Positions 3,477-4,806 of a stretch of 16,681 bases of DNA are shown here, in pieces. Source of the DNA: a virus (lineage: Duplodnaviria; Heunggongvirae; Uroviricota; Caudoviricetes); the IMG/VR virus record IMGVR_UViG_2541047909_000002. One strand, 5' to 3'. The position numbers and the translations under genes are program-made. Position 1 is the first letter of the stretch; each line of letters begins with the position of its first letter. A model generated the notes under the pieces. That model was not told where the DNA came from. It was given only the letters and a program-made list of their open reading frames with translations, and searched no databases.

Positions 3477-3755
3477 ATGGCACGCAACGCAAAATATTAC
3501 AATTCTGATAATTCGCCCGTTCTTGCCTGCACGCACGGGCGGTATTCTCACGCATTCAAGTCTGAATGGTTCCAGCACCCTCCATGCACTGCAGAACAGG
3601 CCGAATGGCTGATTCATTCTTACCGCAGGCGCGGGTTCGAGGTTAAGAAAGCTCTCAGTCTCGACTATCGGCACTGGATAATCTCTGTCAGGCTGCCTTA
3701 TTCCGAACGCCCACCACGTGCGTCCCGCACTTTCCAGCAACGGATCTGGAGGTAA
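3477..3755 (+). CDS. Hypothetical basic protein (92 aa), translationally coupled to ydfU
   Basis: ORF with GGAGA 9 nt upstream of its ATG; its TAA (3753-3755) sits 1 nt before the ydfU GTG start and the ydfU GGAGG lies inside its last codons. No homolog recognised. Confidence 0.35.
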   Translation: MARNAKYYNSDNSPVLACTHGRYSHAFKSEWFQHPPCTAEQAEWLIHSYRRRGFEVKKALSLDYRHWIISVRLPYSERPPRASRTFQQRIWR

Positions 3756-3756
3756 C

Positions 3757-4806
3757 GTGCGGGTATTACTTAGACCTGTTCTGGTGCCTGAGCTTGGGCT
3801 GGTGGTCCTTAAGCCGGGCCGTGAATCCATACAGATATTTCATAATCCTCGAGTGCTGGTGGAACCGGAACCAAAAAGCATGCGTAATCTGCCATCCGGA
3901 GTCGTTCCTGCCGTTCGCCAGCCGCTGGCGGAAGACAAAACATTGCTGCCGTTTTTTAGTAACGAACGGGTGATTCGTGCTGCTGGCGGCGTTGGCGCAT
4001 TGTCCGACTGGCTATTACGTCATGTTACATCCTGCCAGTGGCCTAATGGCGATTACCATCACACTGAAACAGTCATTCACCGTTATGGTACCGGCGCAAT
4101 GGTGTTGTGCTGGCACTGCGACAACCAACTGCGTGACCAGACATCGGAATCACTGGAGCTGCTTGCTCAACAAAATCTGACAGCATGGGTGATTGACGTC
4201 ATCCGTCACGCAATAAGCGGTACGCAGGAGCGGGAATTATCTTTGGCTGAATTATCCTGGTGGGCGGTCTGCAATCAGGTGGTGGATGCACTACCTGAGG
4301 CTGTATCGCGTCGTTCGCTGGGATTACCAGCGGAAAAAATCTGCTCGGTGTACCGCGAAAGCGACATCGTACCGGGAGAGCAGACCGCCACCAGCATATT
4401 GAAACAACGCACAAAAAATCTTGCACCGTTGCCTTACGCCCACCAGCAACAAAAATCACCACAGGAAAAGACGGTGGTAAGCATCACCGTTGATCCAGAG
4501 TCTCCGGAATCTTTCATGAAGCTGCCTAAACGTCGCCGCTGGGTTAAGGAGAAATACACACGTTGGGTTAAGACACAGCCGTGTGCTTGCTGCGGTATGC
4601 CAGCCGACGATCCGCATCATCTGATTGGTCACGGGCAGGGCGGAATGGGAACAAAAGCACATGATCTCTTTGTGTTGCCTTTGTGCAGAAAGCATCACAA
4701 CGAGCTGCATACGGATACAGTGGCATTTGAAGATAAGTATGGCTCCCAACTGGAGCTGATATTTCGTTTTATCGATCGCGCGCTGGCAATTGGCGTACTG
4801 GCGTAA
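3757..4806 (+). CDS. ydfU: YdfU, DUF968 prophage protein with C-terminal HNH-like zinc-binding motif (349 aa)
   Basis: GTG start at 3757 preceded by GGAGG gives 349 aa, the recalled K-12 length; C-terminus carries CxCC...DPHHLIGHG...CRKHHNELH. Confidence 0.8.
   Translation: MRVLLRPVLVPELGLVVLKPGRESIQIFHNPRVLVEPEPKSMRNLPSGVVPAVRQPLAEDKTLLPFFSNERVIRAAGGVGALSDWLLRHVTSCQWPNGDYHHTETVIHRYGTGAMVLCWHCDNQLRDQTSESLELLAQQNLTAWVIDVIRHAISGTQERELSLAELSWWAVCNQVVDALPEAVSRRSLGLPAEKICSVYRESDIVPGEQTATSILKQRTKNLAPLPYAHQQQKSPQEKTVVSITVDPESPESFMKLPKRRRWVKEKYTRWVKTQPCACCGMPADDPHHLIGHGQGGMGTKAHDLFVLPLCRKHHNELHTDTVAFEDKYGSQLELIFRFIDRALAIGVLA

What the first reader, a model, noticed from the sequence alone, without database searches (positions are those of the whole stretch)
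3477..3759. Unannotated-looking 92-codon ORF with stop-start coupling to ydfU
The ORF ends at TAA 3753-3755, one nucleotide before the ydfU GTG, and the ydfU ribosome-binding site lies within its last codons. That is the arrangement of a coupled upstream gene, not random open frame. The product is basic (many R and K) and Cys/His-containing; I recognise no homolog.
Basis: seen in the sequence. Interest (0 to 1): 0.35.

Follow-up and report, generated by a model that had tools for sequence, protein, structure and literature searches.

The report
Real small phage gene before ydfU
The 92-codon frame just upstream of ydfU is a real, widely conserved prophage gene of unknown function that the curated E. 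coli K-12 annotation leaves out, and whose translation probably switches on the nuclease gene behind it.

Summary
The ORF runs 3477-3755 (+), with ATG preceded by GGAG. TAA lies at 3753-3755 and the ydfU GTG at 3757. The ydfU Shine-Dalgarno GGAGG (3748-3752) is formed by the ORF's last two sense codons.

The ORF is coding:
- dN/dS is 0.03-0.22 in this frame and about 1-4 in the others. The one exception is the antisense frame that shares third codon positions.
- The overlapping 137-codon antisense ORF is broken by stops in relatives.
- The DNA occurs in 4528 of 5426 complete E. coli genomes.
- 66-68 aa homologues occur in Salmonella, Klebsiella, Citrobacter, Cronobacter, Hafnia, Edwardsiella, Erwinia and Yersinia phages and in N15-like phages.

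It matches PHROG 1212 (function unknown). PGAP already calls it "hypothetical protein" (WP_012304870.1), but NC_000913.3 annotates nothing between rem and ydfU.

The protein has three parts: a weakly constrained, disordered 26-residue N-extension, a small beta-alpha-beta-beta domain with no significant structural relative, and a conserved basic tail ending in an invariant Trp.

The gene usually sits directly upstream of a nuclease gene (DUF968, NinG, YbcO, RusA or DEDD exonucleases). At the Qin-type junction, a -19 kcal/mol hairpin buries the ydfU SD and start codon, which fits translational coupling.

Function remains inferred: probably an accessory of the recombination-nuclease module. This is an ordinary, already catalogued gene and a curation gap.

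The parts
3477..3755 (+). 92-codon protein-coding gene including the TAA stop; PHROG 1212 family; identical to RefSeq WP_012304870.1
   Evidence: dN/dS 0.03-0.22
3466..3469 (+). Shine-Dalgarno GGAG of the ORF, 7 nt before the ATG; conserved as GGAG or AGAG in diverged loci
3477..3554 (+). Codons 1-26: N-terminal extension found only in the Qin-type long form. Predicted disordered and weakly constrained (dN/dS about 0.6), but always open, with only in-frame indels
3555..3704 (+). Codons 27-76: conserved beta-alpha-beta-beta domain, equivalent to the body of the 66-68 aa homologues; dN/dS about 0.10
3705..3752 (+). Codons 77-92: conserved basic C-terminal tail (P-R-x-S-R-x-F/Y/W-Q-Q-R/K-I/V-W-x) with an invariant Trp91. 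Modelled with low confidence; dN/dS about 0.09
3748..3752 (+). ydfU Shine-Dalgarno GGAGG, formed by codons W91-R92 of the ORF, 4 nt before the GTG
3724..3763 (+). RNA hairpin that pairs both the ydfU SD and the ydfU GTG (-19.3 kcal/mol, z = -3.0). Its sequence is conserved in diverged long-form loci
3757..4806 (+). ydfU: DUF968 His-Me-finger nuclease-like protein, 349 aa, GTG start; the coupled downstream gene
3396..3446 (+). Conserved leader upstream of the ORF: a promoter-like site (TTTTCA-16-TACAAT, ending at 3423) and a hairpin at 3429-3446 (GCGGGG-CTGAAC-TCCCGC). The hairpin stem differs but still pairs in the other sequence type (GCCAG...CTGGC)
2060..3374 (+). IS1414 insertion (1315 bp, 8-bp target duplication ATAAAAGC) in the 3' end of rem, 102 nt upstream of the ORF. 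It separates the ORF from upstream prophage transcription in this strain

Best explanation
The ORF is a genuine lambdoid-phage gene. It is the first cistron of a conserved block, small protein - YdfU (DUF968 nuclease) - (RusA) - antiterminator Q, in the nin-like region of Qin-type prophages.

Shown:
- It encodes an 11-kDa basic protein made of a fast-evolving disordered 26-residue N-extension, a roughly 50-residue beta-alpha-beta-beta domain, and a strongly conserved C-terminal tail ending in an invariant Trp.
- It belongs to a small family largely confined to enterobacterial phages and prophages (PHROG 1212).
- Its 3' end carries the ydfU ribosome-binding site. TAA and GTG are 1 nt apart, and a stable hairpin pairs the ydfU SD and start codon.

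Inferred:
- Ribosomes finishing the ORF melt that hairpin and re-initiate. YdfU would then be made only when, and roughly in proportion as, the small protein is made.
- In an uninduced K-12-type prophage the region is silenced by Rho-dependent termination.

Inferred with lower confidence (about 0.3):
- The protein is an accessory of the phage recombination-nuclease module. The globular domain would bind nucleic acid or the nuclease, and the Trp-tail would act as a short docking peptide for a common partner.
- The basis is that the gene keeps its place immediately upstream of unrelated nuclease folds: DUF968, NinG/Rap, YbcO, RusA and two kinds of DEDD exonuclease.
For: Coding:
- dN/dS is 0.03-0.22 in frame 0 and 0.9-4.3 in four of the other five frames. 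The fifth is the antisense frame that shares third codon positions, and it gives 0.09-0.4.
- The core has median dN/dS 0.11, with third-position diversity 0.23-0.25 against 0.06-0.07 at positions 1 and 2.
- Among the 239 family-carrying loci scanned, 88 encode an intact 92-aa protein.
- Diverged 90-92 aa forms at 63-71% identity are intact.
- The DNA is present in 4528 of 5426 complete E. coli genomes.

Family:
- PHROG 1212, E=1.7e-35.
- 435 clusters at 90% identity and 101 representatives at 50% identity out of 1.84 billion.

Coupling:
- Stop/SD/start geometry.
- Hairpin of -19.3 kcal/mol, z = -3.0, also present in diverged loci with z = -2.3 and -3.1.
- Synonymous sites of codons 86-92 are invariant except at R89.

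Context:
- The long form is always followed by DUF968 at a 1-nt gap.
- Short forms are followed by NinG, YbcO, RusA, RNase_T-type or Rv2179c-type exonucleases. 10 of 13 family clusters at 70% identity have a nuclease next.

Structure:
- The core model has mean pLDDT 84; the tail has low confidence although its sequence is conserved.

Rho silencing upstream of ydfU: PMC9160355.
Against: - I found no direct evidence of translation (ribosome profiling, proteomics). The curated K-12 annotation omits the gene.
- The hairpin shows no compensatory substitutions, and short-form junctions have no significant structure. Structural coupling may therefore be specific to the DUF968 module.
- Tight stop-start spacing is the rule throughout nin regions. 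Adjacency may reflect compact packing and synteny, not partnership.
- In Erwinia phage 59, Hafnia phage Pocitis76 and Pantoea PA-1 the next gene is not a nuclease.
- No fold or sequence match indicates a biochemical activity.
- The N-extension shows almost no codon-position signature.
Confidence: 0.8

Rival explanations
1. The region is a non-coding leader or intergenic spacer, as in the K-12 reference annotation. It would carry the Rho-dependent terminator that silences ydfU and quuQ, and the open frame would be fortuitous.
For: NC_000913.3 annotates nothing between rem and ydfU. A very strong Rho-dependent terminator is reported upstream of ydfU, and ydfU but not rem rises in rho mutants (PMC9160355). 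Chance ORFs of this size occur nearby.
Against: This frame shows a purifying-selection signature. It stays intact over dS up to about 0.9. Protein-level homologues at 30-50% identity occur in other genera and other genome contexts. Rho termination inside a poorly translated ORF is compatible with the ORF being a gene.
Confidence: 0.03
2. The real gene is the overlapping 137-codon ORF on the minus strand (3417-3830).
For: It is longer than the plus-strand ORF.
Against: dN/dS in its frame is 0.9-4 (frame r0). It is interrupted by 2-5 stop codons in every diverged homologue, including loci that are 92% identical at the protein level of the plus-strand ORF. It also overlaps the ydfU start.
Confidence: 0.01
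3. The ORF is the detached 5' part of ydfU, either a frameshift pseudogene or a programmed +1 frameshift product, and not an independent gene.
For: The ydfU frame is open back to GTG 3718 and overlaps the ORF end. Rare database proteins read from the ORF into the ydfU frame (P0185, P0097).
Against: 66-68 aa homologues are free-standing genes next to unrelated proteins such as NinG, YbcO, RusA and exonucleases. All diverged DUF968 partners start 1 nt after the stop, at 349-352 aa. The fused forms are rare singletons or partial contigs.
Confidence: 0.02
4. The small protein is an antitoxin- or immunity-like inhibitor that neutralises the downstream nuclease. The layout (small upstream gene translationally coupled to a nuclease) resembles type II toxin-antitoxin systems.
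For: Gene order and coupling. One phage record labels it 'toxin to Rem', with no supporting evidence. Prophage genes behind the Rho terminator are described as toxic.
Against: The same conserved protein precedes at least five unrelated nuclease folds, whereas a specific inhibitor would co-vary with its target. There is no match to TA, defence or immunity families. The fold is not RHH, HTH, AbrB or a helical immunity fold. RusA and NinG work without such partners in lambda and 82 (established knowledge).
Confidence: 0.08
5. The gene is real, but its position next to nucleases is only nin-region synteny and compact packing. The protein would act on something unrelated to the downstream nuclease, for example a host factor or RNA.
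For: Nearly all nin-region genes overlap or abut. In three phages the next gene is a methyltransferase or a small ORF. The upstream neighbour is also fairly constant (DUF1367/NinB-like), which suggests positional conservation. The weak fold matches are to RNA/ssDNA-binding folds such as R3H and KH.
Against: N15/PY54-type linear-plasmid prophages have a different gene order, yet the gene again sits beside exonuclease genes. The long-form N-extension occurs only with DUF968 partners.
Confidence: 0.3

Closest known systems
PHROG 1212 (phage protein family of unknown function); members include Gifsy-2 STM1021.1n, mEp237_051, phiES15 gp17, GF-2 gp72 and SPN3UB gp61
   Same: Residues 27-92 match the whole 66-position profile at E=1.7e-35. 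They share the conserved F/Y/G/LP positions and the C-terminal P-R-x-S-R-x-x-Q-Q-K/R-x-W tail, and occupy the same place in the nin region just before a nuclease gene.
   Different: The Qin-type protein has an extra 26-residue N-terminal extension. It is paired specifically with DUF968/YdfU, and it is preceded by its own leader instead of abutting a DUF1367/NinB-like gene.
N15 'Orf QD1', PY54 ORF47 and relatives in linear-plasmid prophages
   Same: Same domain and the same QQK-I/M-W tail. N15 Orf QD1 is the best structural match in BFVD (E=6.6e-4).
   Different: The genome context differs: downstream of a Q-like gene and next to DEDD exonucleases or RdgC. H34 and C37 are replaced by Q and M, and identity is 30-45%.
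Small lambda ninR ORFs (NinD/E/F/H), for example NinE between ybcN and ybcO in DLP12 (gene order from my own knowledge)
   Same: Small basic proteins of unknown or accessory role, packed between the Orf/NinB-like gene and the Rap/RusA-type nucleases and translationally abutting their neighbours.
   Different: No sequence relationship: there is no Pfam hit at all at E<=1, including NinE, NinF and NinH. This is a positional analogue, not a homologue.
Classical translational coupling by an SD-sequestering hairpin, as in the MS2 coat-replicase pair and many operon junctions (established knowledge)
   Same: The downstream SD lies inside the upstream ORF, there is a 1-nt stop-start gap, a weak GTG start, and a hairpin that pairs the SD and start and lies in the path of terminating ribosomes.
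   Different: Not tested experimentally here. The hairpin shows no covariation and is absent at the short-form junctions.

Membership tests
PHROG 1212 | Significant full-length match to the family HMM | tested here: met
   E=1.7e-35, 121.9 bits; protein residues 27-92 against profile positions 1-66 of 66
PHROG 1212 | Conserved core positions and C-terminal Trp tail shared with members from other genera | tested here: met
   Y49, L73, P74 and W91 are invariant, and F32, A42, G53 and P80 nearly so, across 16 diverse members; confirmed in the 55-sequence alignment
Type II toxin-antitoxin (antitoxin upstream of a nuclease toxin) | Small upstream gene translationally coupled to the toxin gene | tested here: met
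   1-nt gap and SD inside the ORF
Type II toxin-antitoxin (antitoxin upstream of a nuclease toxin) | Antitoxin-type DNA-binding fold or family match (RHH, HTH, AbrB, Phd) | tested here: not met
   No Pfam, NCBIfam or PADLOC hit. The model is beta-alpha-beta-beta with no significant PDB match
Type II toxin-antitoxin (antitoxin upstream of a nuclease toxin) | Cognate, co-varying partner | tested here: not met
   The same family precedes DUF968, NinG, YbcO, RusA, RNase_T-type and Rv2179c-type nucleases
Lambda NinE / NinF / NinH families | Match to the Pfam model of the family | tested here: not met
   0 Pfam families at E<=1
R3H domain (ssDNA/RNA-binding beta-alpha-beta-beta-alpha) | Significant structural similarity | tested here: inconclusive
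   R3H domains of Smubp-2 and PARN recur among the top hits, but at E=0.3-0.6 and TM 0.33-0.50
R3H domain (ssDNA/RNA-binding beta-alpha-beta-beta-alpha) | Conserved R-x3-H motif (definition from my own knowledge) | tested here: not met
   No conserved Arg-x3-His in the alignments
   Only H34 and C37 are conserved, and only within the lambdoid subset. Elsewhere they are replaced by Q/Y and M/L/V
Beta-clamp-binding proteins (C-terminal QL[SD]LF-type motif; consensus recalled from memory) | Q-x-x-(L/I/V/M)-(F/W/L)-type pentapeptide at or near the C-terminus | tested here: inconclusive
   Q-Q-(R/K)-(I/V/A/M)-W-x-COOH is conserved and predicted unstructured. Position 2 is not hydrophobic, and Trp at position 5 is not a documented variant to my knowledge
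Beta-clamp-binding proteins (C-terminal QL[SD]LF-type motif; consensus recalled from memory) | Physical binding to DnaN | not testable with these tools

The most novel reading that the evidence does not exclude
The invariant C-terminal Trp tail (…P-R-P-S-R-x-F-Q-Q-R-I-W-x-COOH) is conserved yet predicted unstructured. It could be a docking peptide for a host hub protein, for example the beta sliding clamp, whose Q-x-x-L-F-type motifs it loosely resembles. The small domain would hold nucleic acid or the co-translated nuclease. The family would then be a tiny, interchangeable adaptor that directs whichever nin-region nuclease is encoded next to it (DUF968, Rap, YbcO/RusA or DEDD exonucleases) to replication or recombination intermediates. 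No such class of phage factor has been described.
Probability: 0.1. Interest if true: 0.6.

Novelty: already known. Interest (0 to 1): 0.3.

Why it matters
The main value is for curation. This gene is present in about 83% of complete E. coli genomes and in K-12 itself. It has clear signatures of selection, yet it is absent from the curated K-12 reference annotation (NC_000913.3), so K-12 'omics analyses treat the region as an untranslated leader of ydfU that carries a strong Rho-dependent terminator. Recognising the ORF changes how that terminator and ydfU/quuQ expression should be read, because termination then falls within or after a translated cistron. It also points to a conserved, uncharacterised small protein that keeps company with the recombination nucleases of lambdoid and N15-like phages. 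Rap, RusA and Orf have been studied there without it. None of this is very surprising: small conserved hypothetical genes are common in nin regions.

Tried and rejected
- **Pfam, NCBIfam, PADLOC.** No hit for the 92-aa protein.
- **PDB by sequence profile.** Nothing meaningful; best E=0.034 to a K+ transporter fragment.
- **Foldseek of the full-length model and the core model against PDB.** No hit below E=0.2. R3H, KH, PII and S6-like folds recur, but this is generic beta-alpha-beta-beta similarity.
- **BFVD.** Only the homologous N15 Orf QD1.
- **Rosetta-stone fusions.** The longer hits (P0197, P0204, P0173, P0240, P0185) look like frameshift or chimeric products. One viral contig (L225) fuses the family to an RNase_T exonuclease, but it is a single case.
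- **Literature.** Searches for the accession, for K-12 coordinates and for Qin with ribosome profiling found nothing on this ORF.
- **Covariation.** None found for the ydfU-SD hairpin. The leader hairpin has only two sequence types.
- **Alternative internal start near codon 27.** This would give a short form, but there is no in-frame ATG, GTG or TTG there.
- **Zinc-binding idea.** Rejected because Cys and His are not conserved across the family.
- **Scan with the mixed short-form alignment.** It failed for lack of a conserved stretch and was replaced by two sub-alignments.
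Full report
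**Where the window comes from.** The window is the Qin cryptic prophage region of an E. coli chromosome. It is 100% identical over all 16,681 bases to strain HSP425. The local gene order is flxA, ydfV, relBE, hokD, rem (truncated), IS1414, the ORF in question, ydfU, ydfT/quuQ, cspF, cspB and onward. The IS1414 copy spans 2060-3374 with an 8-bp target duplication (ATAAAAGC). It sits in the 3' end of rem, 102 nt upstream of the ORF.

**Checking the observation.**
- ATG is at 3477, followed by 92 sense codons and TAA at 3753-3755. One base separates the stop from the GTG at 3757.
- PGAP and the K-12 reference both use that GTG as the ydfU start. The product is a DUF968 protein (E=1.4e-76).
- The ydfU Shine-Dalgarno GGAGG (3748-3752) is formed by the ORF's last two sense codons, TGG AGG.
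- The ORF has its own GGAG 7 nt before its ATG.
- The product is basic (pI 10.2).

Length alone proves nothing. A 137-codon ORF overlaps this one on the opposite strand, and a 121-codon ORF lies antisense inside ydfU.

**Is it a gene?** The comparative evidence says yes.
- Against 20 distinct long-form DNA sequences from viral contigs and phages, dN/dS in this frame is 0.03-0.22. Four of the other five frames give 0.9-4.3. The fifth is the antisense frame that shares third codon positions; it gives 0.09-0.4, an expected artefact.
- The 137-codon antisense ORF lies in frame r0, where dN/dS is 0.9-4. It is interrupted by 2-5 stops in every diverged relative.
- With more diverged copies (63-76% protein identity, dS up to about 0.9), the core (codons 27-92) has median dN/dS 0.11. 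Third-position diversity there is 0.23-0.25 against 0.06-0.07 at positions 1 and 2.
- Among the 239 family-carrying loci scanned, 88 encode an intact 92-aa protein. The diverged E. coli loci carry intact 90-92 aa forms. One E. coli genome has a truncated copy (L096).
- The ORF's DNA occurs in 4528 of 5426 complete E. coli genomes, with up to 8 copies per genome.

**Annotation status.** PGAP already calls the ORF 'hypothetical protein' WP_012304870.1, both in this strain and in PGAP-annotated K-12 assemblies. UniProt-derived names are 'Prophage protein'. The curated reference NC_000913.3 has nothing between rem (b1561) and ydfU (b1560). The ORF is therefore unannotated only in the curated K-12 record.

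**Family.**
- Pfam and NCBIfam give no hit. PHROG 1212, of unknown function, matches residues 27-92 over its full 66-position profile at E=1.7e-35.
- tblastn against phage genomes finds 59 records. Long forms (75-99% identity) occur in Escherichia phages. Forms of 66-68 aa (30-48% identity) occur in phages of Salmonella (Gifsy-2, SPN3UB), Klebsiella, Citrobacter, Cronobacter, Hafnia, Edwardsiella, Erwinia, Pantoea and Yersinia (PY54), and in N15-like Ravinvirus, where the gene is labelled 'orf QD1'.
- A profile search finds 435 clusters at 90% identity, all named hypothetical. Only 101 representatives at 50% identity turn up among 1.84 billion proteins. The family is small, and every named source is an enterobacterial phage or prophage.

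**Anatomy of the protein.**
- Y49, L73, P74 and W91 are invariant across 16 diverse members. F32, A42, G53 and P80 are nearly so.
- The tail follows the pattern P-R/K-x-S-R-x-(F/Y/W)-Q-Q-(R/K)-(I/V/A/M)-W-x-COOH.
- H34 and C37 are invariant only among lambdoid members. They become Q/Y and M/L/V elsewhere, so the Cys/His content is not a metal site.
- The full-length AlphaFold2 model has mean pLDDT 69. Residues 1-23 fall below 50, and the predicted elements are a strand at 27-33, a helix at 39-52 and strands at 55-60 and 67-74.
- The core-only model has mean pLDDT 84, with a confident beta-alpha-beta-beta domain and a low-confidence tail.
- Foldseek finds no PDB match below E=0.2. R3H, KH, PII and S6-type folds recur weakly. 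The only significant viral match is the homologous N15 Orf QD1.
- The 26-residue N-extension exists only in the long form. Its dN/dS is about 0.6, with no codon-position signature. It is never interrupted, its indels are in-frame, and there is no in-frame start codon near codon 27. It must therefore be translated whenever the strongly selected core is translated.
- A conserved sequence that is predicted to be unstructured, such as this tail, is typical of a short docking motif. That is an inference.

**Genomic context.**
- Every long form examined is followed by a 349-352 aa DUF968 gene after a 1-nt gap, then usually by RusA and Q.
- The upstream neighbour of the long form varies (rem, hok, an oppositely oriented ParDE pair, or hypotheticals). 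A 130-170 nt gap separates that neighbour from the ORF.
- Short forms are followed by several different genes, usually with a 1-nt gap or a 4-nt overlap: NinG/Rap (Gifsy-2, GF-2, SPN3UB), YbcO/DUF1364 then RusA (mEp237, phiES15, Klebsiella phages), RusA then a YdfU-family gene (Citrobacter Chris1), an RNase_T-type or an Rv2179c-type DEDD exonuclease (N15-like elements), or an HNH-like 98-aa protein.
- After dereplication at 70% identity, 10 of 13 family clusters have a nuclease gene immediately downstream.
- Exceptions are Erwinia phage 59 (a cytosine methyltransferase), Hafnia Pocitis76 (a 59-aa ORF, then NinG), Pantoea PA-1 and PY54 ORF48.
- The upstream neighbour of short forms is often DUF1367, annotated in some records as NinB/Orf-like, or YbcN.
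- DUF968, DUF1364/YbcO and NinG are His-Me-finger nucleases proposed to act in recombination (PMC5714182; PMC4118853).

**How expression probably works.** At the Qin-type junction, the 40 nt at 3724-3763 fold into a hairpin that pairs both the ydfU SD and the GTG. Its free energy is -19.3 kcal/mol with z = -3.0, and only 2 of 200 shuffles fold as well.
- The same fold appears in copies that are only 65-71% identical at the protein level (z = -2.3 and -3.1).
- Synonymous sites of codons 86-92 are invariant except at R89. This indicates a nucleotide-level constraint on top of the protein-level one.
- There are no compensatory changes, and short-form junctions have no significant structure.
- The arrangement fits classical translational coupling: ribosomes terminating at TAA would open the hairpin and re-initiate at the weak GTG. 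This is inferred, not shown.

Upstream of the ORF, diverged long-form loci share three features: a terminator-like hairpin belonging to the preceding gene, an invariant ACAAT within a promoter-like TTTTCA-16-TACAAT (3396-3423), and a leader hairpin (3429-3446) whose stem differs yet still pairs between the two sequence types. I did not resolve what these do.

A published study lists the terminator upstream of ydfU among the strongest Rho-dependent terminators in E. coli. Its supplement shows ydfU, but not rem, rising in rho mutants (PMC9160355). That places termination in or just after this ORF. It is consistent with a gene that is transcribed and translated only when the phage's own antitermination or promoter activity is on. 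In this particular strain, IS1414 additionally cuts the ORF off from upstream transcription.

**Function.** No tool gave a biochemical assignment. My best inference, at roughly 0.3, is that the protein is an accessory of the recombination-nuclease module. It is small and basic, it is co-translated with whichever nuclease occupies the next slot, and it carries a conserved docking-type tail.
- A specific inhibitor or antitoxin role is unlikely. One conserved protein precedes at least five unrelated nuclease folds, and no TA, immunity or defence family matches.
- The alternative that adjacency is mere nin-region synteny remains serious, at about 0.3. N15/PY54-type elements have a different gene order and again place the gene beside exonucleases, which argues for a real link to DNA processing.
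- The tail loosely resembles bacterial clamp-binding peptides (Q-x-x-L-F type; consensus recalled from memory). I could not test this.

**Verdict.** The feature is an ordinary, already catalogued, conserved hypothetical phage gene and not a new kind of element. The useful outcomes are a concrete correction for the K-12 reference annotation, a likely coupling mechanism for ydfU, and a defined small family that merits a simple experiment.

Noticed in passing
window 2060-3374 (target duplications at 2052-2059 and 3375-3382): A 1315-bp IS1414 (IS256 family; transposase at 2132-3340) is inserted in the 3' end of rem with an 8-bp duplication ATAAAAGC. It truncates rem and lies 102 nt upstream of the ORF. 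Strain HSP425 carries a second copy just beyond the window's left end.
   Followed up: yes
window 3396-3446: A conserved leader precedes the ORF in diverged Qin-type modules. It has a promoter-like TTTTCA-16-TACAAT with invariant ACAAT, and a hairpin GCGGGG-CTGAAC-TCCCGC whose stem is GCCAG/CTGGC in the other sequence type while the CTGAAC loop is kept. Only two sequence types exist, so covariation evidence is thin. Its role (promoter, processing site or protein-binding site) is unknown.
   Followed up: partly
window 3724-3763: A stable hairpin (-19.3 kcal/mol, z = -3.0) pairs the ydfU SD and GTG start. Synonymous sites of the ORF's last seven codons are almost invariant.
   Followed up: yes
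window 3718-3756 (ydfU frame): The ydfU reading frame is open upstream to an in-frame GTG at 3718, which would give a 362-aa product overlapping the ORF by 38 nt. Annotations and diverged homologues all favour the 3757 start. Rare database proteins (P0185) read from the small ORF into this frame.
   Followed up: partly
L225 (IMGVR_UViG_3300036796_000076), about 2501-3610: A single viral contig in which the family protein is fused in frame to the downstream RNase_T-type exonuclease (369 aa). The usual ...QQKIW-stop ending is replaced by ...QQKNMG.... This could be a real fusion or a sequencing frameshift.
   Followed up: no
L086 (Escherichia phage vB_EcoS-689R5) 3001-3279: The homologue is labelled 'toxin to Rem' in this GenBank record, and an overlapping 37-aa antisense ORF is labelled 'mobile element protein'. 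I found no evidence for either label.
   Followed up: partly
K-12 region between rem and ydfU (NC_000913.3 1644305-1644650; window 3375-3756): A published study ranks the Rho-dependent terminator 'upstream of ydfU' among the strongest in E. coli (PMC9160355). The region it assigns to an untranslated leader contains this conserved ORF.
   Followed up: partly
P0121 (Salmonella enterica, 96 aa): A short-form variant with an internal tandem duplication of about 30 residues (HHHDCTTEQADTLISDYQKRG... repeated). It was the top scorer in both profile searches.
   Followed up: no
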